Shown here: piece by piece, positions 1 to 43,718 of the stretch
Layout of the letters: every line of letters starts with the position of its first letter
Position numbering within the stretch: the first letter of the stretch is position 1
Assembly: GCA_016710165.1 (NCBI GenBank)
Contig: JADJLJ010000005.1
Coordinates: 10,937-74,936, forward strand
From: Chitinophagaceae bacterium
GTDB lineage: Bacteria > Bacteroidota > Bacteroidia > Chitinophagales > Chitinophagaceae
DNA: 64,000 bases
Direction: 5' to 3'
Position numbers and translations under genes: made by a program
Notes under the pieces: model-generated
Told to the model about the DNA's origin: nothing
Database searches by the model: none
Seen by the model: only the letters and a program-made list of their open reading frames with translations

Positions 1-790
1 GCAGTAATTTTCCATCGTTGTTGCTTACCAGCGCCCGTATGTTCAGGCTGCGGGTATTTTCTGAGATCCCCGATTCAGCTGCTATGATCCTGGCCGAATA
101 GGTTCTTGGATTGCCTTCAATGCTGAAGTCAACCGATTGCCCGATCCGGAAGCTGCTGCTGTATTTTTCAGGCAACGTAAAATCCAGTTTCAACTGGCTG
201 TTCTGCCGGATGGTGGTTAATGTTGTTGCGGGGCTGATGTACGCACCGGCGCTTACATTCTTCAAACCCAGTGTTCCGCCAAAAGGGGCCCTTATCTCTG
301 TACGGCTGATGCCGGTACGTACAATCTCCATATCGGCCCTGATGGTGTTTACCTGTAAAGCGCTCAGGTCATACTCCTGCTGGCTCACGCCGTTTATCTT
401 CAGCAGTTCGCCCATGCGGCTTACGGTTTGTTCGGCCACGGCCAGCTGCACCTGTAATTTCTTTAACTGGGCCTGCAGGTCGCCGTCATATATTTTAGCC
501 AATAAAGCCCCCTTGCCTACTGTTTTTCCTTCGTTGATGTTGAGGTAAACCAGCCTGCCGGAGATCTCGGGATGTATCTCTGTTTCCTCGTTGGCAATGA
601 TGGAACCGGGTAATTCGGCCTTGTCGCTAACCATCATGGGTTTAACGATATAGCCCTCCACCTTCATTGCGGTGGGTTTAGGTGCTGCGGGGGCATCGGC
701 TTTTTTATCGCTGCCCTTGCAGGAAATAAGTAAAAAAACGGTAACCGTGATACTGCTAATAAAATAAATGCTGCGGAAGAATATTTTCAC
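1..790 (-). CDS. RND efflux periplasmic adaptor (membrane fusion protein), lipoprotein; 3' end runs off the window
   Basis: Not in the ORF track; translated by hand from GTG at 790: VKIFFRSIYFISSITVTVFLLISC (lipobox)...IANEETEIHPEISGRLVYLNINEGKTVGKGALLAKI...EIRAPFGG. This is the typical MFP lipoyl/barrel-sandwich pattern. Confidence 0.85.
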   Translation of the reverse strand, partial: MKIFFRSIYFISSITVTVFLLISCKGSDKKADAPAAPKPTAMKVEGYIVKPMMVSDKAELPGSIIANEETEIHPEISGRLVYLNINEGKTVGKGALLAKIYDGDLQAQLKKLQVQLAVAEQTVSRMGELLKINGVSQQEYDLSALQVNTIRADMEIVRTGISRTEIRAPFGGTLGLKNVSAGAYISPATTLTTIRQNSQLKLDFTLPEKYSSSFRIGQSVDFSIEGNPRTYSARIIAAESGISENTRSLNIRALVSNNDGKLL

Positions 791-872
791 CTGTTGTTGG
801 TTTGATTCAGGCGATAAATTTAAGCCATATTCACTACCCGGAATCAATTTTTTATATGACCGGCAACTGCCA

Positions 873-2378
873 TCAACGGGCTTTTACAAAGAGGGTATTT
901 TTAATGCGGTTGGCCTGGTGGATGAGCTCCTGTTTTTCCCTGCTCAGGATGGTAATATGGCCCATCTTACGGCCCGGTTTGGTTTCTTTTTTTCCGTAGA
1001 TATGAACGAACACATTTTCGATCTGCAGAATTTCATTCAGTCCTTCATAAACGGCTTCGCCGGTATACCCCTCCGCACCGATCAGGTTTACGATAGCAGC
1101 GGGTAAAATAGGGTCGGTACATCCCAGCGGGTAACCCAGCATTACCCGCCACAGCATGTCAAACTGCGAACTGTAGCTGGCTTCAATGGTATGATGACCA
1201 CTGTTGTGTACCCGGGGGGCTGTTTCGTTCACGAAAACATTATCGTCGGTGTCAACAAATAATTCCACAGCAAAAATGCCGGGGCTTTTCAGATCCTTCA
1301 CCACTTTCAGTGCCACTGCTTCCACTTTCCATAATACCTTTTGGGGCAGGTCTGCCGGGCTTACCTGGTATTCCAGCAAATTGAGTTTGTTATCAAAGAT
1401 CATGTCCACAGGCGGGTACAGGGCTGTTTCGCCTTTGTCGTCCACCGCGATGATCATGGAAACTTCTTTTTTGATGCGGATGAGTTTTTCCAGCACAGCG
1501 GGGGCGTTAAAACCTTTGTCCAGGTCGGCTTCTGTTTTGATCAGTTGAACACCCTTTCCGTCGTAACCACCCATTGCCAGTTTATGGGCAGCAGGTAAAA
1601 AACCAGTCTGCTTTTTCAGTTCAGCCAGATCGTTTGTGATCACAAAATCACTGGTAGGGATCCCGTTGTCTTTATAAAACTGCTTTTGAAGTATTTTATT
1701 CTTGATGGTCTTAAGGGCCGATGGCCTGGGATAGATCTTAATGCCTTCGGCTTCCAGTTTTTCCAGTGCATCTGCATTCACCGATTCAATTTCGATGGTG
1801 AGGGCATCCAGGCCTTTGCCGAAATTGTAAACATCCTCAAAGCTGGTTATATCGCCTTTGGTGAAATGATGACAGAGGTGTGCTGCCGGGCAGGCGGGAT
1901 CGTTCTCCATTACAAAGGTTTCCACGGGGTAGTTGGCAGCCGCTTGTAACAGCATGCGGCCTAACTGGCCACCCCCTAAAATGCCAACCCGGGGCTGCCC
2001 TGAGCGGAGTCGAAGGGCAGATGGCCGGGCGGAGTCGGGACCTTTTTCCAAATCTTTATACTTATGGTGTGAAAAATTATTGCATTGCGAAAGTAACTGA
2101 AGCTTGTGAAAATTCCCTTCTGTCAGTGCTTTTTTCTTTGCTTTTGACCAGCCTTTGATCTGTGATTCCCTTTCAACAGCATCTTTCAAAAAGGGGATGG
2201 TCTCGTAATACTTTAATACCAATGGTCTTCGGCTGAATGTATAGTAGGTTTCATAGTACCCGGTCTTATGTTCTTCAAATCTTCGTACCAGGTCATCGGT
2301 GAGGCCTGTGTAGTAAGAGCCATCATTGCACAGGATGATATATATATAATATGATTCCTGTTGGGTATTATAGATCAT
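873..2378 (-). CDS. purK: Fusion: N-terminal GIY-YIG endonuclease (aa ~1-109), repeat-encoded linker, and N5-carboxyaminoimidazole ribonucleotide synthase PurK (aa ~131-501)
   Basis: N-terminus YIYIILCNDGSYYTG...RRFEEH...ERESQIKGWS is a small GIY-YIG domain. The C-terminal part has GILGGGQLGRM, GYDGKG, NETAPRVHNSGH and YGKKETKPGRKMGH (ATP-grasp PurK). A possible internal TTG start lies at 2051. Confidence 0.9.
   Translation of the reverse strand: MIYNTQQESYYIYIILCNDGSYYTGLTDDLVRRFEEHKTGYYETYYTFSRRPLVLKYYETIPFLKDAVERESQIKGWSKAKKKALTEGNFHKLQLLSQCNNFSHHKYKDLEKGPDSARPSALRLRSGQPRVGILGGGQLGRMLLQAAANYPVETFVMENDPACPAAHLCHHFTKGDITSFEDVYNFGKGLDALTIEIESVNADALEKLEAEGIKIYPRPSALKTIKNKILQKQFYKDNGIPTSDFVITNDLAELKKQTGFLPAAHKLAMGGYDGKGVQLIKTEADLDKGFNAPAVLEKLIRIKKEVSMIIAVDDKGETALYPPVDMIFDNKLNLLEYQVSPADLPQKVLWKVEAVALKVVKDLKSPGIFAVELFVDTDDNVFVNETAPRVHNSGHHTIEASYSSQFDMLWRVMLGYPLGCTDPILPAAIVNLIGAEGYTGEAVYEGLNEILQIENVFVHIYGKKETKPGRKMGHITILSREKQELIHQANRIKNTLFVKAR
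1989..2042 (-). repeat. Two REP-like hairpins read in frame as the GIY-YIG/PurK linker (GPDSARPSALRLRSGQPR)
   Basis: Minus strand GGTCCCGACTCCGCCCGGCC and CTGCCCTTCGACTCCGCTCAGGGCAG (7-bp stem). Same core as the CTTCGACTTCGCTCAG array at 2497-2628, in opposite orientation. Confidence 0.85.
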
Positions 2379-2460
2379 GCCGGTAAGCTAATGCCGGGCA
2401 ACTAAAAGGGGAAGTGAAAAACAGCATGGTTTTATGTGGTTGTCACCGACTTATTGGGTC

Positions 2461-2482
2461 GTACCTCGACTTCGCTCGGTAC
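2461..2482 (+). repeat. Single hairpin copy of the CTTCGACTTCGCTCAG family
   Basis: GTACC-TCGACTTCGCTC-GGTAC: a 5-bp stem around the family core. Confidence 0.75.
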
Positions 2483-2496
2483 TTGCCGCTTCCACA

Positions 2497-2628
2497 CTTC
2501 GACTTCGCTCAGTGCGGACTTCGACTTCGCTCAGTGCAGACTTCGACTTCGCTCAGTGCGGACTTCGACTTCGCTCAGTGCGGGCTTCGACTTCGCTCAG
2601 TGCGGGCTTCGACTTCGCTCAGTGCGAT
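2497..2628 (+). repeat. Tandem array of 6 x 22 bp (CTTCGACTTCGCTCAGTGCGGA consensus), no spacers
   Basis: Units start at 2497, 2519, 2541, 2563, 2585 and 2607. They vary only in the last 4 nt (CGGA/CAGA/CGGG/CGAT). Confidence 0.97.
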
Positions 2629-2641
2629 TGAGAACTTTTAT

Positions 2642-2649
2642 TATCTTTG
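2642..2649 (+). promoter_or_regulatory. Bacteroidota sigma-A -7 element (TATCTTTG), probably for hppD
   Basis: Matches TAnnTTTG; lies immediately after the tandem array and ~150 bp upstream of hppD. Confidence 0.45.
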
Positions 2650-2795
2650 GATTAATAATGACACCCGATTATCCACATAAACTCTTTTCCGACAAGCGTA
2701 ACAGCTATTCTATGCTGATGCTTACGCTTGCGATGGATTCGGCCGGTTAATTTGAATGCAGCTCCCAGGCTATTTTTTATTTCAAATTAATTACC

Positions 2796-3929
2796 ATGCA
2801 AACAACAACCGTTCAAACCTCAACCGTAAATAACAGCACAACTGATTTTCTTCCCCTGCAGGGAACCGACTATGTAGAGCTTTATGTTGGCAACGCCAAA
2901 CAGGCGGCCCATTTTTATAAAACAGCTTTCGGCTTTCAGTCGGTGGCCTATGCAGGTCCTGAAACCGGCATGAGGGATAAAGTGAGTTACGTGATCCGCC
3001 AGAACAAACTCACGTTTGTGCTGACCACACCGTTAAAGAGCAGTAATCCCATTGCAGACCATATTCATAAACACGGCGATGGCGTGAAAGTGCTTGCCTT
3101 AAAAGTGGAGGATGCCGCCAGCGCTTTTGAAGAAACCACCAAACGGGGCGCCAAAGCATATCTTGAACCAACGGTTTTAAAGGATGCCGATGGCGAAGTG
3201 GTACTGAGCGGGATACATACCTACGGCGATACCGTGCACATCTTTGTGGAGCGTAAGAATTACAAGGGCCTATTCATGCCGGGATTCCGGGAATGGAGGT
3301 CGAACTATAATCCTGCAGAGACCGGTTTGTTGTATGTTGACCATTGTGTGGGCAACGTAGGATGGAACCAGATGAATCCCTGGGTGAAGTTTTACGAGGA
3401 TGTGATGGGCTTCCGCAATATCCTGAGTTTTGATGACAAGGATATATCTACTGAATACTCGGCACTGATGAGTAAGGTGATGAGCAATGGAAATGGTTAT
3501 GTGAAATTCCCCATCAATGAGCCGGCAGAGGGCAAGAAGAAAAGCCAGGTGGAAGAATACCTTGATTTTTACGACGGGGAAGGGGTACAGCATGTGGCCA
3601 TTGCCACCAACGATATCGTTAAAACAGTGACCGAACTGCAAAACAGGGGGGTGGAGTTCTTAACCATCCCGCCCAGTTATTATGAAACCGTTCTGGAACG
3701 GGTTGGCAAGATCGATGAAGACCTGGAGCCATTGCAAAAGCTGGGTATACTGATCGACCGGGACGACGAGGGGTATTTGCTGCAGATATTCAGTAAACCA
3801 CTGGAAGACCGGCCGACACTGTTTTTCGAGATCATCCAGCGCAAGGGCGCCAGGAGCTTTGGTAAAGGGAATTTCAAAGCCTTGTTTGAAGCGCTGGAAA
3901 GAGAACAGGACGCACGGGGAAATCTATGA
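2796..3929 (+). CDS. hppD: 4-hydroxyphenylpyruvate dioxygenase
   Basis: HGDGVK, DHCVGN, FPINEP, GVQHVA, LLQIFSKP and FFEIIQRKG..FGKGNFKALFE motifs. Confidence 0.97.
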   Translation: MQTTTVQTSTVNNSTTDFLPLQGTDYVELYVGNAKQAAHFYKTAFGFQSVAYAGPETGMRDKVSYVIRQNKLTFVLTTPLKSSNPIADHIHKHGDGVKVLALKVEDAASAFEETTKRGAKAYLEPTVLKDADGEVVLSGIHTYGDTVHIFVERKNYKGLFMPGFREWRSNYNPAETGLLYVDHCVGNVGWNQMNPWVKFYEDVMGFRNILSFDDKDISTEYSALMSKVMSNGNGYVKFPINEPAEGKKKSQVEEYLDFYDGEGVQHVAIATNDIVKTVTELQNRGVEFLTIPPSYYETVLERVGKIDEDLEPLQKLGILIDRDDEGYLLQIFSKPLEDRPTLFFEIIQRKGARSFGKGNFKALFEALEREQDARGNL

Positions 3930-3946
3930 TACCGGATCACGTATTT

Positions 3947-3981
3947 AAAAATAACTGCATGGTTACCATGCAGTTATTTTT
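3947..3981. terminator. Bidirectional-type intrinsic terminator after hppD
   Basis: AAAAATAACTGCATGG-TTA-CCATGCAGTTATTTTT, a perfect 16-bp inverted repeat. Confidence 0.85.
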
Positions 3982-4089
3982 GTTTTTGGGTATCCTGCCC
4001 GAAAGAATTCCCGTTTTGGATGCTTTTATATTGAATATTTTTTTTTACTTTTAAAGTCGCTAATAAATAAATCAATCCACTTAAAATTA

Positions 4090-4857
4090 ATGAACCGCTT
4101 ACTTCTCAAATCATGTTTGCCGGTATTCATTGCAGTTTTTGCAAGCTTTGCCTGCTTTTCCCAAACGGCATTCAACGATAATCAAAAGAACAATTACCGG
4201 GTGGGGGGTACATTCAACAAACTGGAGGATTCTTTGAAAAGGCAGTTTGAAGAAAAGAAACTTGCCTGGCCTCCCCAGTCACTTTATATCCGCTCATTCA
4301 AATACGACCGCCAGCTGGAAGTGTGGGTGAAGAACGGCAACAACGAGTCCTTCAAACTTTTTAAAACATACAAGGTTTGCATGCAGAGCGGCACCACCGG
4401 TCCGAAGCGTATGGAAGGCGACTACCAGATCCCGGAAGGCTTTTATTATATCAACGAATTCAATCCAAACAGCAAATACCATTTATCACTCGGGCTCAAT
4501 TATCCCAATGCATCCGACAGGATATTGAGCGATTCGATCCGGCCCGGCGGGTCCATCTACATTCATGGTAATTGTGTTTCCACCGGCTGTATTGCCATCA
4601 GCGATATTCCCATTGAAGAATTGTTCATCATCGCTACCCGGGCAAGGGCCAACGGGCAGGATTTCATCCCGGTGCATGTGTTCCCGGTGCGGTATGATGT
4701 GAAAAAATCCCTTCTATACCTTGCCGAAGCAACCATCCGTAACCAGGTGATACAGAAATTTGCCATCCGCCTCAAAGAGGCGTTTGATTATTTTGAAGAG
4801 AAGAGACAGCTGCCTGTCATCATGGTCAGCAAAACAGGTGAGTACGTGATCAATTAG
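4090..4857 (+). CDS. L,D-transpeptidase family protein (YkuD; YafK/DpaA-like)
   Basis: Signal peptide; GPKRMEGDYQIPEGFY, LSLGLNYPN and IYIHGNCVSTGC (His/Cys catalytic motif). Confidence 0.88.
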   Translation: MNRLLLKSCLPVFIAVFASFACFSQTAFNDNQKNNYRVGGTFNKLEDSLKRQFEEKKLAWPPQSLYIRSFKYDRQLEVWVKNGNNESFKLFKTYKVCMQSGTTGPKRMEGDYQIPEGFYYINEFNPNSKYHLSLGLNYPNASDRILSDSIRPGGSIYIHGNCVSTGCIAISDIPIEELFIIATRARANGQDFIPVHVFPVRYDVKKSLLYLAEATIRNQVIQKFAIRLKEAFDYFEEKRQLPVIMVSKTGEYVIN

Positions 4858-6116
4858 CGCATCAATACCTGCACGGTTTCGGGTGTACGTTGCATCAGTA
4901 AAACAGTCTTTCCATTTGTAAGCTCCTCGTATTTCTCCCTCGAATAATGCCGGATGGTGAGCAACGTAAGGTCTTTTTCCAGTTGCACATCAAAGATATC
5001 CGAAGCAGCCAGCGCCAGTTTTTCAATCTTATCCGGTTTGTCATCGAGGCAGCATAACAGGCTTACTGCCCCGTTCTGCGAAATGTTTGGACGGATCTTG
5101 ACCTGGTCGAATATCTCATGCAGCGCTGCGATCGGTTTTTCCTCCACAAATGAAAAGTCTTTTGAACTTAACTCCATCAGCACCTGGCTCTTCTTCAGCA
5201 CGATAATGGGAGGCAGGTTGTGAACCGGTTTATTGCTGATGACCGTGCCGGCGATCTCCGGTTTCAGGAAGCAACGCACGTGCAGGGGAATGTTCTTATT
5301 CTCCAGCGGCTTGATGGTTTTTGGGTGTATCACCTGGGCGCCGTAGTATGCCATCTCCACCACTTCCCGGTAACTCAGGGCATTGATCACTACGGCATCC
5401 GGGAATTCTTTCGGGTCGGCATTCATCACACCCTCCACATCTTTCCAGATGGTCTGGCTTTGGACATTTAATATATTGGCAAAAATGGCGGCGCTGAAAT
5501 CACTGCCTTCCCGTCCGAGGGTGGTGCTTTCATTCTCACCGGTAGCGCCAATGAAACCCTGGGTGATTACAATATCGTATGCCGCAAACAAAGGTTCCAC
5601 TACTGTTCTTATTTTCTGCCGGGTATGATCCCAGTCGATGGCGGCATCCCGGAAGTTGTCATCCGTACGAACAATGTCCCGCACATCCAGCCATTTGTTC
5701 TTTATGCCGGCTTCCTGGAGGTAATTGCTCACCAGCGAGGTACTTAATAATTCACCGCAACAAACCACCTGGTCGTAATAATAATCGTAATCCCTTACCG
5801 GTTTATCATGCAGCAGCCATTCCACTTCGGTAAAAAAATCCTTCAGCTGGTTTTCGGCCTGCTGCCAGTTGATGTGGATGAGGTATTTAAGCAGGTTCTG
5901 GTGCGATTCCTTCACCTGGTCAAATAATCGCAGGGCATCTTCTTTCCTTCCTTCAAAAAAAGCATCCACCACTTTCTCCAGCGCATTGGTGGTTTTGCCC
6001 ATGGCAGAGATGATGACGAGTATTTTTTCGCCGCCGTACGATCTTAAAATATTGCCTGTGTTCTGTATCCTTTCTGCCGTGCTGATACTGGCGCCGCCAA
6101 ACTTAAAAACCTTCAT
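4854..6116 (-). CDS. lysC: Aspartate kinase
   Basis: MKVFKFGGAS, ISAMGKTTN, TLGREGSDFSA, WKDVEGVMNADP and AYYGAQVIHP. Confidence 0.95.
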   Translation of the reverse strand: MKVFKFGGASISTAERIQNTGNILRSYGGEKILVIISAMGKTTNALEKVVDAFFEGRKEDALRLFDQVKESHQNLLKYLIHINWQQAENQLKDFFTEVEWLLHDKPVRDYDYYYDQVVCCGELLSTSLVSNYLQEAGIKNKWLDVRDIVRTDDNFRDAAIDWDHTRQKIRTVVEPLFAAYDIVITQGFIGATGENESTTLGREGSDFSAAIFANILNVQSQTIWKDVEGVMNADPKEFPDAVVINALSYREVVEMAYYGAQVIHPKTIKPLENKNIPLHVRCFLKPEIAGTVISNKPVHNLPPIIVLKKSQVLMELSSKDFSFVEEKPIAALHEIFDQVKIRPNISQNGAVSLLCCLDDKPDKIEKLALAASDIFDVQLEKDLTLLTIRHYSREKYEELTNGKTVLLMQRTPETVQVLMR

Positions 6117-9952: not shown

Positions 9953-9972
9953 TGAATGTTATCCGTTAGTCC

Positions 9973-10052
9973 GTTAATTGGTTAATTCGTTAATTGGTTA
10001 ATCTGTTAATTTGGTAGTACGGATTAACATGTAAACAAATCAACCAATTAAC
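9973..10052. repeat. 5 x 8-bp GTTAATTG-type tandem repeat with a downstream inverted copy
   Basis: GTTAATTG/GTTAATTC/GTTAATTG/GTTAATCT/GTTAATTT at 9973-10012. CAACCAATTAAC at 10041-10052 is its reverse complement. Confidence 0.7.
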
Positions 10053-43515: not shown

Positions 43516-43518
43516 TGA

Positions 43519-43718
43519 TCGTTTAAATCGTTTAAATCGTTTAAATCGTTTAAATCGTTTGAGTCGTTGAAGTCGTTTCATGCAGGATGCTCCAACCTTT
43601 TTAAACCCTGCAACCTTTTTAAACCCTGCAACGATTTCAACCCTGCAACGATTTAAACCCTGCAACGATTTCAACCCTGCAACGATTTAAACCCTGCAAC
43701 GATTTCAACCCTGCAACG
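43519..43718. repeat. Composite tandem array: 7 x 9-mer TCGTTTAAA, then 2 x 18-mer and 5 x 17-mer CAACGATTT(C/A)AACCCTG in inverted register
   Basis: 9-mers at 43519-43581; 18-mers at 43593-43628; 17-mers at 43629-43713 alternate C/A. Confidence 0.93.

What the first reader, a model, noticed from the sequence alone, without database searches (positions are those of the whole stretch)
873..2628. Intact GIY-YIG nuclease bracketed by inverted copies of its own repeat family and fused in frame to PurK (REPtron-like cassette)
Seen: the domain keeps Y-I-Y...Y-Y-T-G, Arg33, His37 and Glu (ERESQIK). Downstream (1989-2042) the CTTCGACT(C/T)CGCTCAG core reads on the minus strand. Upstream (2461-2628) it reads on the plus strand, as one hairpin plus 6 tandem copies, so the repeats flank the nuclease in inverted orientation. 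Removing the 54-nt linker leaves TTG-E-K-VGILGGGQ, a normal-looking PurK start. Known: RAYT HUH transposases sit between inverted REPs and are thought to maintain them. Inference: a small GIY-YIG may play the equivalent role for this Bacteroidota repeat family. The cassette would have landed at the purK 5' end and gained selection for retention through an essential purine gene.
Basis: partly seen in the sequence, partly recalled or inferred. Interest (0 to 1): 0.8.

Follow-up and report, generated by a model that had tools for sequence, protein, structure and literature searches.

The report
GIY-YIG hairpin element fused to PurK
A small DNA-cutting enzyme gene, still bracketed by its own hairpin repeats, was joined long ago in frame to the purine-synthesis gene purK in Ferruginibacter-like bacteria; it is a fused variant of the recently described Ssn nuclease/hairpin-repeat elements, not a wholly new kind.

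Summary
ORF 873-2378(-) encodes GIY-YIG (aa 1-112), an 18-codon repeat-made linker, and PurK. The repeat core occurs 8 times in the 64 kb window, all beside this gene and in inverted orientation.

The locus is not a one-off or a recent landing. More than 100 protein clusters from Ferruginibacter/Chitinophagaceae carry the same fusion at the same hppD-purK site, always with the repeats. Relatives with an empty site (PurK starting MKKIGILGGGQ) are interleaved among them. The nuclease domain is under purifying selection (dN/dS 0.10-0.15).

The domain belongs to a very large family of about 100-aa stand-alone GIY-YIG genes. Their flanks carry an inverted hairpin pair: TGTCA-stem-TGAGCNNNGTCGAA-stem, then the gene, then the mirror image ending in TGACA. 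The motif is about 130-fold enriched near the gene and its stem covaries. It also occurs as many gene-less single copies and about 75-bp pairs.

What looks new is the hairpin motif, which the published SRM pattern misses, and the recurrent in-frame capture of housekeeping genes: PurK here, a SpoU methylase in Sphingomonadales.

The parts
2043..2378 (-). GIY-YIG nuclease domain plus conserved C-terminal tail (aa 1-112; ...ALTEGNFHKLQLLSQCNNFSHHKYKDLEK)
   Evidence: Pfam PF01541 E 6e-15. PDB phmmer hits to UPF0213 proteins 1zg2 (1.5e-11) and 1ywl. AF2 model pLDDT 89.9, with top Foldseek hits 1zg2, 1ywl, Slx1 and UvrC-N. dN/dS 0.10-0.15. Family HMM hit at 2046-2357, E 6e-43.
2024..2042 (-). Degenerate inner repeat unit ('type B', GGTCCCGACTCCGCCCGGC). 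It forms the first part of the linker and encodes GPDSARP.
   Evidence: Sequence. Relatives carry CTCGACTCCGCTCG (LDSARP, LDYARP) at the same place.
1995..2020 (-). Outer repeat unit ('type A' hairpin CTGCCC-TTCGACTCCGCTCA-GGGCAG). It forms the second part of the linker and encodes ALRLRSGQ.
   Evidence: Exact core match at 2000-2015. ssDNA fold -6.3 kcal/mol, z -2.2. The same unit is read in all three frames in relatives: PSTTLR, LRLRSGQ, FDSAQG.
1989..2042 (-). 54-nt (18-codon) in-frame linker, made entirely of the two repeat units
   Evidence: In two of the three closest comparisons (window vs L209, L209 vs L210) the linker has lower dS and higher dN/dS than both domains; in the third (window vs L210) its dN/dS lies between theirs.
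873..1988 (-). PurK (N5-CAIR synthase) moiety from V131-GILGGGQ to the stop. It has no ATG or native 5' region of its own.
   Evidence: Pfam and NCBIfam. Unfused orthologues start MKKIGILGGGQ.
2379..2460 (-). 82-nt spacer between the upstream repeats and the GIY-YIG ATG. It presumably holds the promoter now driving the fusion.
   Evidence: Sequence only. Promoter not tested.
2461..2482 (+). Upstream inner unit (GTACC-TCGACTTCGCTC-GGTAC), inverted relative to 2024-2042
   Evidence: Same position and orientation in L001, L004 and L005. Weak as a free hairpin.
2496..2626 (+). Upstream array of 6 x 22 nt of the outer unit core (ACTTCGACTTCGCTCAGTGCGG), inverted relative to 1995-2020
   Evidence: TRF score 241. 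Relatives have arrays of other copy number and period at the same place.
2658..2750 (+). Left boundary marker: a conserved 30-aa ORF (MTPDYPHKLFSDKRNSYSMLMLTLAMDSAG) preceding hppD (2796-3929). Not part of the cassette.
   Evidence: Conserved in both empty and filled loci.

Best explanation
What it is. The cassette is one copy of a compact, IS-like element. It consists of a roughly 100-aa UPF0213/Ssn-type GIY-YIG nuclease gene bracketed by inverted hairpin repeats. The family consensus is 5'-TGTCA-stem-TGAGCNNNGTCGAA-stem ... gene ... stem-TTCGACNNNGCTCA-stem-TGACA-3'.

Likely enzyme activity. By analogy with the characterised Ssn nucleases, the protein most likely recognises its hairpin in single-stranded DNA and nicks beside it (inferred, not shown).

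Origin of the fusion. In an ancestor of a Ferruginibacter/Chitinophagaceae clade, one copy inserted into the roughly 65-nt divergent promoter region between the small-ORF-hppD operon and purK. It landed a few nucleotides upstream of the purK ATG and in the same orientation (shown by comparing empty and filled sites). ORFs of this family often run through their 3' hairpin, and here the reading frame continued into purK, giving GIY-YIG-(repeat-encoded linker)-PurK (shown).

Later changes. In crown lineages, including this window, the native -7 box-like TATATTTG and the ATG-AAA-AAA codons were lost. PurK can now only be translated from a start inside the cassette (shown for the sequence; the start actually used is inferred). 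This ties loss of the cassette to loss of PurK and explains why the frame is kept through linkers of many lengths.

Current state. The nuclease domain is not a mere leader. It evolves under purifying selection nearly as strong as PurK and usually keeps its catalytic residues, so it is probably still an active, now largely immobile (domesticated or trapped) nuclease. The local repeats are its degenerate ends.
For: The fusion is real and widespread.
- about 100 of the best 120 hits are roughly 500-aa proteins carrying PF01541 plus the PurK domains, at 63-100% identity.
- contigs from four independent DNA runs cover the junction without gaps.
- a 2,196-nt metatranscriptome contig (run X26, about 95% identical) runs unbroken from 800 to 2163, across PurK, the linker and part of GIY-YIG.

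Same site in all relatives, and empty sites exist.
-.
- empty sites read ...TATATTTG(N5)ATGAA(A/G)...GGNAT.
- L004 keeps ATGAAAAAAATCGGC 11 nt after the outer unit.

Symmetric arrangement (outer', inner', gene, inner, outer) in every fused locus.

Selection on the nuclease domain.
- dN/dS for the GIY domain is 0.146, 0.120 and 0.104, against 0.111, 0.065 and 0.070 for PurK.
- 85 of 102 fused proteins keep Y13, Y23, R33, H37 and E71.

Co-inheritance: GIY-YIG and PurK distances correlate at rho 0.79, against 0.85 between the two PurK halves.

Family-wide link between gene and repeat.
- 8,497 representatives (50%-identity clusters), mostly 100-160 aa, many with tails that are repeat-derived peptides.
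- enrichment and orientation bias near the gene.
- on 108 units, 82.8% of stem cells pair against 59.2% in shuffles; 137 cells change on both sides against 52 in shuffles (0 of 500 shuffles reach this); slid controls pair at 27-37%.
- in 20 of 54 loci the ORF reads through the 3' hairpin core.

Gene-less copies exist.
- 153 exact matches in 120 metagenome loci, only 2 within 300 nt of a GIY-YIG. The HMM positive control found the gene in 84 of 86 loci.
- 20 '-+' pairs whose cores lie 19-46 nt apart in 18 of them (107 and 194 nt in the other two).

A published precedent for the mechanism: PMC11893778.

A second, independent fusion of the same kind: GIY-YIG-linker-SpoU methylase in Sphingorhabdus and Sphingomonas.
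Against: - The published SRM search pattern finds nothing in the window or next to any of the 80 homologues. Membership of the Ssn family proper (cd10448) could not be tested. The closest solved structures are labelled UPF0213.
- The window's units lack TGTCA/TGACA, and no gene-less copy lies in the 64 kb. Current mobility, or any in-trans target in this genome, is therefore unsupported.
- Dependence of PurK on the nuclease is not absolute. L206 lost two thirds of the domain, leaving only TTG as a possible start. L208 has a frameshift. P0093, P0097 and P0111 lost both R33 and E71. All keep PurK.
- Fused and unfused PurK are interleaved. There are about 33 Fitch changes on a noisy tree, discordant pairs occur at 1.6-3% protein distance, and no linkage to PurK sequence shows in any 30-aa window. 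Unfused alleles carry the native promoter and ATG, which simple deletion from crown fused alleles cannot regenerate. Recombination between alleles must therefore be invoked, and it was not demonstrated.
- There is no protein-level evidence that the full-length fusion is made. The RNA contig could contain contaminating DNA.
- Most units are weak hairpins by energy alone.
Confidence: 0.6

Rival explanations
1. This is an actively mobile, selfish REPtron-like cassette that landed at purK fairly recently. It maintains a dispersed repeat family in this genome and is kept only because it is welded to an essential gene.
For: The family behaves like a mobile element: inverted ends, gene-less MITE-like pairs, arrays, tandem gene duplicates and other cargo between ends. 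Presence at purK is patchy among relatives. dS in the GIY part is 3.3x that of PurK between the window and L209, which hints at a separate history.
Against: All fusions sit at one site and share a signature tail (NFHKLQLLSQCNN). GIY-YIG distances track PurK distances. The local units lack the terminal TGTCA/TGACA, and no other copy occurs in 64 kb. Strong purifying selection on a single fixed copy is not expected from welding alone.
Confidence: 0.15
2. The fusion is only apparent. purK is translated on its own from an internal start (for example TTG 2051-2053 or another non-ATG codon), and the open frame upstream is incidental.
For: In L206 the nuclease is mostly deleted, a TAA precedes the tail, and no in-frame ATG exists before GILGGGQ. 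PurK there must start at a TTG in the tail remnant. Gene callers chose such starts for P0099, P0118 and P0272. The deep lineage L004 keeps an internal ATG in an A-rich context.
Against: The frame is kept through linkers of very different length and sequence in about 100 clusters. The same repeat unit is read in all three frames, which needs compensating indels. Without selection on the frame, about two thirds should be out of frame. In the window no ATG or GTG lies between the tail and GILGGGQ.
Confidence: 0.15
3. The repeats are ordinary regulatory or transcript-level structures (terminators, attenuators, mRNA stabilisers) of the locus and have no functional tie to the nuclease.
For: Single units are frequent away from any GIY-YIG gene. 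Some solo pairs appear in metatranscriptome contigs.
Against: The units have no T-tract and a short 3-5-bp stem with a 13-14-nt conserved loop. There is no Rfam match. Enrichment next to the gene is about 130x, with mirror-image orientation on the two sides, across several phyla. Experimental work on the sister system shows protein-ssDNA recognition and no RNA binding.
Confidence: 0.07
4. Assembly or binning artefact: a missing stop, a frameshift error or a chimeric contig creates the fusion.
For: The source is a metagenome-derived sequence. Repeats break short-read contigs at 2548-2597.
Against: Gap-free contigs across 1700-2235 in independent runs. The same architecture appears in more than 100 clusters from NCBI, ENA, JGI and Logan, including 1.3- and 2.4-Mb contigs.
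Confidence: 0.01

Closest known systems
Ssn nucleases and their SRM/NTS hairpin repeats (Chenal et al., Nat Commun 2025, PMC11893778)
   Same: A small GIY-YIG protein whose gene is flanked on both sides by 20-50-nt hairpin-forming inverted repeats. The repeats are oriented by a conserved flank next to the stem (NTS: C-GTCA-stem; here: T-GTCA-stem). Many further copies lie elsewhere in genomes. The published discussion already notes the IS-like 'repeat-gene-repeat' layout and the REP/RAYT parallel (my).
   Different: The repeat here has a short covarying 3-5-bp stem and a conserved 13-14-nt loop (TGAGCNNNGTCGAA). NTS has a long conserved stem and a small loop. The published SRM pattern gives 0 hits. 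This copy is a 501-aa fusion, and the paper's Ssn tree excluded proteins over 150 aa. Assignment to cd10448 and ssDNA cleavage are untested here.
REP/RAYT 'REPtrons' and BIMEs
   Same: A single nuclease or transposase gene sits between inverted copies of a hairpin repeat that also occurs as gene-less singles, pairs and arrays.
   Different: RAYTs are HUH/Y1 enzymes related to IS200/IS605 TnpA. This enzyme is a GIY-YIG. No expansion of the repeat is visible in this window.
IS200/IS605 with PATE/MITE-like derivatives
   Same: Compact elements whose ends are recognised as hairpins in single-stranded DNA. No obvious target duplication. Short non-autonomous derivatives exist.
   Different: A different catalytic family. 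The ends here are true inverted repeats (TGTCA...TGACA), unlike the asymmetric IS200/IS605 ends. Transposition has not been shown.
Free-standing GIY-YIG homing endonuclease genes (phage T4 Seg/Mob, I-TevI-like)
   Same: A GIY-YIG gene present or absent at one fixed site between conserved genes in related genomes, with signs of mosaic history.
   Different: Homing enzymes carry a separate DNA-binding domain and cut double-stranded DNA. This domain is about 110 aa with only a short helical tail, and it has hairpin repeats.
UPF0213 proteins (E. coli YhbQ type; PDB 1zg2 BH0048, 1ywl EF2693) and the Slx1 nuclease domain
   Same: These are the closest solved folds and sequences.
   Different: They are solved structural-genomics targets with no known repeat association. 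The family here has an extra conserved tail L..L(S/A).C.N.(S/T)H.

Membership tests
GIY-YIG nuclease superfamily | GIY and YIG motifs, catalytic Arg, His/Tyr and Glu, on a beta-beta-alpha-beta-alpha fold | tested here: met
   PF01541 E 6e-15. Y13, Y23, R33, H37 and E71 present, and invariant or nearly so in the family. AF2 model pLDDT 89.9 matches 1zg2, 1ywl, Slx1 and UvrC-N.
Ssn family (Chenal 2025) | Assignment to CDD cd10448, or blastp E<1e-10 with at least 75% coverage to N. meningitidis SsnA (CAX49033.1) | not testable with these tools
   Neither CDD nor the SsnA sequence was available. The nearest PDB relatives are UPF0213.
Ssn family (Chenal 2025) | Single-domain protein of about 94-150 aa | tested here: not met
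   This copy is 501 aa, fused to PurK. Its stand-alone relatives (100-160 aa) do meet the criterion.
Ssn family (Chenal 2025) | Gene flanked on both sides by hairpin-forming inverted repeats | tested here: met
   Window. Family: 46 of 80 loci have the strict core within 400 nt, 32 of 80 on both sides, in mirror orientation. Variants occur in most of the remaining loci. Stem covariation.
Ssn family (Chenal 2025) | Repeats fit the SRM pattern HGTCWYN(0-2)YYVSBRHN(0-5)WNVSBRGN(0-2)RNCYNB | tested here: not met
   0 hits in the window, 0 within 500 nt of 80 homologues, and 2 in 534 kb of far flank.
Ssn family (Chenal 2025) | Conserved oriented flank beside the hairpin | tested here: inconclusive
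   In the family, TGACA follows the 3' stem in about 70-75% of 250 units. The window's own units have GGGCAG or GTGCGG instead.
Ssn family (Chenal 2025) | Site-specific cleavage of single-stranded DNA only | not testable with these tools
   Biochemistry required.
REP/RAYT (REPtron) | HUH/Y1 transposase-like protein between inverted REPs | tested here: not met
   The protein is a GIY-YIG with no HUH domain. Only the layout is analogous.
GIY-YIG homing endonuclease | Nuclease domain linked to a sequence-specific DNA-binding domain | tested here: not met
   No further domain is found in the stand-alone relatives. They have only a roughly 25-aa helical tail.
PurK (N5-carboxyaminoimidazole ribonucleotide synthase) | Full-length match above the curated cut-off, with preATP-grasp, ATP-grasp and PurK_C domains | tested here: met
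   NF004679 346.8 bits (cut-off 326) and TIGR01161 324.3 bits (cut-off 318.4). Pfam domains.

The most novel reading that the evidence does not exclude
The TGTCA-hairpin...hairpin-TGACA units define a large, undescribed family of GIY-YIG-driven insertion elements. The family has autonomous copies of about 420 bp and MITE-like copies of about 75 bp. These elements repeatedly settle just upstream of housekeeping genes, read through their own terminal hairpin, and replace the host gene's promoter and start codon. The host gene (PurK in Ferruginibacter, a SpoU methylase in Sphingomonadales, possibly MeaB and a flavoprotein elsewhere) can then only be made as a fusion. That would be a 'welding' strategy by which a selfish nuclease makes itself undeletable.
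Probability: 0.3. Interest if true: 0.8.

Novelty: new variant of a known kind. Interest (0 to 1): 0.6.

Why it matters
1. It extends the newly described Ssn nuclease/hairpin-repeat systems to a very large Bacteroidota-centred branch. That branch has a different recognition hairpin, which the published search pattern does not detect, so current surveys under-count these systems.

2. It gives the clearest comparative hints so far that such units behave as insertion elements: true inverted ends, gene-less miniature pairs, arrays, and empty versus filled sites.

3. The PurK and SpoU-methylase fusions show a repeat-encoded linker read in all three frames and kept open across a whole clade. This is a natural test case for how a selfish gene can become locked to an essential one, or become domesticated.

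4. Each nuclease-hairpin pair is a candidate new site-specific ssDNA nuclease, which is the application the Ssn paper aims at.

Tried and rejected
- Rfam (E up to 1) on 1-5000: no match.
- NCBIfam on the nuclease domain alone: no family.
- The published SRM pattern: no hits.
- Literature searches for GIY-YIG with REP, UPF0213/YhbQ/COG2827, PurK or Ferruginibacter, and for the core sequences themselves. Nothing was found beyond the Ssn paper.
- Its supplementary tables are not held, so I could not see whether Bacteroidota repeats were among its 29 curated genomes.
- A co-conversion gradient: no association between fused/unfused state and PurK sequence in any 30-aa window.
- Preference for sitting upstream of a co-oriented gene: 45 same-strand against 25 opposite-strand neighbours, which is no more than ordinary gene co-orientation.
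- tblastn against plasmids: only two weak hits.
- The idea that LEK is a relic of the PurK start was rejected, because LEK is part of the conserved nuclease tail and MKK survives after the linker in deep lineages.
- The sigma-70 promoter scan was not run, because Bacteroidota promoters are not covered by that tool.
Full report
OBSERVATION.

The minus-strand ORF 873-2378 encodes 501 aa. Pfam finds GIY-YIG at aa 10-82 and the three PurK domains at aa 130-487. NCBIfam scores the protein above the curated PurK cut-offs.

The repeat core CTTCGACTYCGCTCAG occurs 8 times in the 64-kb window, against 0.04 expected, and all copies lie beside this gene. One is on the minus strand inside the 54-nt linker (2000-2015). 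Seven are on the plus strand upstream (2464-2622), six of them as a 22-nt tandem array.

In gene orientation the layout is: array of outer units, one inner unit, 82 nt, GIY-YIG, inner unit, outer unit, PurK.

Contigs from four independent DNA runs from wastewater and sludge cover 1700-2235 without gaps; single contigs from X1 and X3 span the whole stretch. The junction is therefore real.

THE FUSION IS OLD, WIDESPREAD AND AT ONE SITE.

A search with the whole protein returned about 100 clusters (90% identity) of roughly 500-aa GIY-YIG+PurK proteins at 63-100% identity. Where they are named, they come from Ferruginibacter or Chitinophagaceae MAGs.

In all eleven fused or remnant loci I fetched (L001, L004-L007, L206-L211), the gene lies divergent from hppD, as in the window. 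In each locus whose flanks I read, the upstream units are in the '-' orientation and the downstream units are in the '+' orientation inside the linker.

The linkers differ in length. They consist of the same outer unit read in all three frames (PSTTLR, LRLRSGQ, FDSAQG), preceded by the inner unit (LDSARP or LDYARP).

Unfused orthologues (374-376 aa, starting MK(K/R)IGILGGGQ) occupy the same site. They have a 65-nt intergenic region with TATATTTG five nucleotides before the ATG.

A deep fused lineage (L004) still has ATGAAAAAAATCGGC 11 nt after the outer unit. The original insertion was therefore in the purK 5' leader. In the window and other crown lineages that ATG region is gone.

HISTORY OF THE FUSED AND UNFUSED STATES.

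Searching with PurK alone shows fused and unfused proteins interleaved at 80-86% identity. A noisy NJ tree needs about 33 state changes. Discordant pairs exist at 1.6-3% protein distance, although the DNA of one such pair is only about 89% identical.

State is not linked to PurK sequence in any 30-aa window. Among fused proteins, however, GIY-YIG distances correlate with PurK distances (rho 0.79) almost as well as the two halves of PurK do with each other (0.85).

I read this as one origin and co-inheritance, followed by repeated replacement of one allele by the other through recombination among relatives. That last step is inference.

Between the window and its 94% relative, dS is 0.53 in the nuclease part and 0.16 in PurK. 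This points to a mosaic history.

STATE OF THE NUCLEASE DOMAIN.

dN/dS is 0.10-0.15 for the domain, against 0.05-0.11 for PurK. In two of the three closest comparisons the linker shows lower dS and higher dN/dS than both domains, as expected for a DNA-level constraint; in the third it does not.

Of 102 fused proteins, 85 keep Y13, Y23, R33, H37 and E71. A few lineages lost both R33 and E71.

Decay does occur. In L206 the first two thirds of the domain were replaced by a PIN toxin-antitoxin pair. The tail and linker remain in frame behind a TAA, with no ATG before GILGGGQ, so a TTG in the tail must serve as the start. L208 has a frameshift near the N-terminus.

PurK therefore depends on cassette sequence for its start, but not strictly on an intact nuclease.

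A metatranscriptome contig (about 95% identical) runs unbroken from beyond the purK stop to inside the nuclease gene. This fits one transcript, although DNA carry-over cannot be excluded.

THE FAMILY BEHIND THE DOMAIN.

The domain matches the UPF0213 structures 1zg2 and 1ywl. It models confidently as a GIY-YIG fold.

A scan of 1.84 billion representatives gave 8,497 relatives. Most are 100-160 aa, cover the whole domain including a conserved tail L..L(S/A).C.N.(S/T)H, and often end in repeat-derived peptides.

Eighty loci were fetched from named genomes. They are mostly Bacteroidota, with some Nitrospirota, Nitrospinaceae, Chloroflexota, Ignavibacteria, Sphingomonadales and a CPR bacterium.

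- The 8-mers most enriched next to the gene are fragments of the core.
- The strict core TCGA[CG]NNNGCTC gives 139 hits within 400 nt of the gene, against 9 in 534 kb of distant flank.
- Orientation is upstream '-' 60:17 and downstream '+' 47:15. Canonical positions are about 35-50 nt before the start of the domain match and 5-25 nt after its end.
- Loci without the strict core carry variants such as TTCGACAAGCTCA.

On 250 distinct units the consensus is A-N-N-C-TTCGAC-NNN-GCTCA-G-N'-N'-T-GACA.

On 108 equal-length units the five flanking pairs are 82.8% complementary. Shuffles give 59.2% and slid registers give 27-37%. There are 137 double-sided changes against 52 in shuffles (0 of 500 shuffles reach this).

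The element is thus TGTCA-hairpin, gene, hairpin-TGACA. The median distance between the left core and the ATG is only 26 nt. In 20 of 54 loci the ORF runs through the right hairpin. That read-through is the step that made the PurK fusion possible.

GENE-LESS COPIES.

A metagenome scan for TTCGACNNNGCTCANNNTGACA returned 120 loci with 153 matches. Only 2 matches lie within 300 nt of a GIY-YIG gene. The same HMM finds the gene in 84 of 86 control loci.

With a relaxed core there are 138 singles. There are 20 outward-facing '-+' pairs, 18 of which have their cores 19-46 nt apart (the other two 107 and 194 nt), against 6 '+-' pairs. There are also arrays, and one pair enclosing other DNA.

These look like miniature derivatives of the element. 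No such copy lies elsewhere in this window.

WHAT IS KNOWN.

Chenal et al. 2025 (PMC11893778) described the Ssn family:
- It consists of small single-domain GIY-YIG proteins (cd10448).
- Their genes are flanked by hairpin repeats (NTS/SRM) that also occur in hundreds of copies.
- Four purified members cut single-stranded DNA just upstream of their repeat, and cut neither dsDNA nor RNA.
- The authors note that the repeat-gene-repeat layout is that of an insertion sequence, and they compare it with IS200/IS605 and REP/RAYT.

The differences are real, however. The published SRM pattern finds none of the units described here. The hairpin design differs: a short covarying stem, a conserved large loop and a TGTCA flank. 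The paper's family tree excluded proteins longer than 150 aa. No paper in the library contains these core sequences or mentions a GIY-YIG-PurK fusion. I could not test formal membership of cd10448.

A SECOND FUSION OF THE SAME KIND.

In Sphingorhabdus (L046) and Sphingomonas paucimobilis (L063), a family member is fused through a repeat-derived linker to a SpoU-type methyltransferase. The two proteins are 383 and 347 aa and 60% identical over their full length.

Representatives P0234 (start of a MeaB-like protein) and P0217 suggest further cases.

VERDICT.

The locus is best described as an ancient, mostly immobilised Ssn-like GIY-YIG/hairpin element that took over the promoter and start of purK and is inherited as a fusion under purifying selection.

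The anatomy, distribution, selection pattern and repeat-gene association are shown. The ssDNA-hairpin nuclease activity, the start codon actually used, and the recombinational turnover of alleles are inferred.

Noticed in passing
window 2658-2750 (+): A 30-aa ORF (MTPDYPHKLFSDKRNSYSMLMLTLAMDSAG) lies 45 nt upstream of hppD. It is conserved at protein level in L001, L002, L004, L005, L211 and L212, even where the surrounding synteny differs. It could be a leader peptide or a small protein of the hppD operon.
   Followed up: partly
L046 4998-6149 and L063 4998-6041: In Sphingorhabdus and Sphingomonas paucimobilis MAGs, a GIY-YIG of the same family is fused in frame, through a repeat-derived linker, to a SpoU-family methyltransferase. 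The two proteins are 60% identical over their full length. This is a second conserved fusion of the same kind.
   Followed up: partly
L087 7494-7564; L100 971-1045; L117 7863-7934; L123 393-466; L141 1689-1760: Gene-less inverted pairs of about 75 bp: TGTCA-hairpin, about 28 nt, hairpin-TGACA. They have the same ends as the nuclease-bearing element and look MITE-like. No target duplication is evident.
   Followed up: partly
L115 4949-5624: A pair of the same inverted hairpin ends encloses about 630 nt that give no GIY-YIG HMM hit. This may be different cargo.
   Followed up: no
L206 2239-2840: A PIN-domain toxin plus a small partner gene sit where the 5' part of the GIY-YIG cassette was deleted, between hppD and the purK remnant fusion.
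   Followed up: no
L011 4539-5297; L012 4510-5309: Two tandem copies of the GIY-YIG gene lie about 460-500 nt apart in two Flavobacteriaceae genomes.
   Followed up: no
window 2043-2120 (-), aa 87-112: The family has a conserved C-terminal tail with Cys99, Asn101 and His105, and also an invariant Cys17. This tail is absent from the aligned UPF0213 structures. It could be a recognition or metal-binding element.
   Followed up: no
window 43518-43718: There are two adjacent tandem arrays between convergent genes: ATCGTTTAA x about 7, then TTTAAACCCTGCAACGA x 7. The second unit contains the reverse complement of the first around an inserted CCTGCA, so the arrays could pair into a long imperfect hairpin.
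   Followed up: no
window 9964-10018: A short tandem array of GTTAATTG / GTTAATCC units (period 8 or 16). It was not examined.
   Followed up: no
window 1989-2378 versus 873-1988, compared with L209: Synonymous divergence between the window and its 94% relative is 0.53 in the nuclease part and 0.16 in PurK. The two parts of one ORF have different recent histories.
   Followed up: partly
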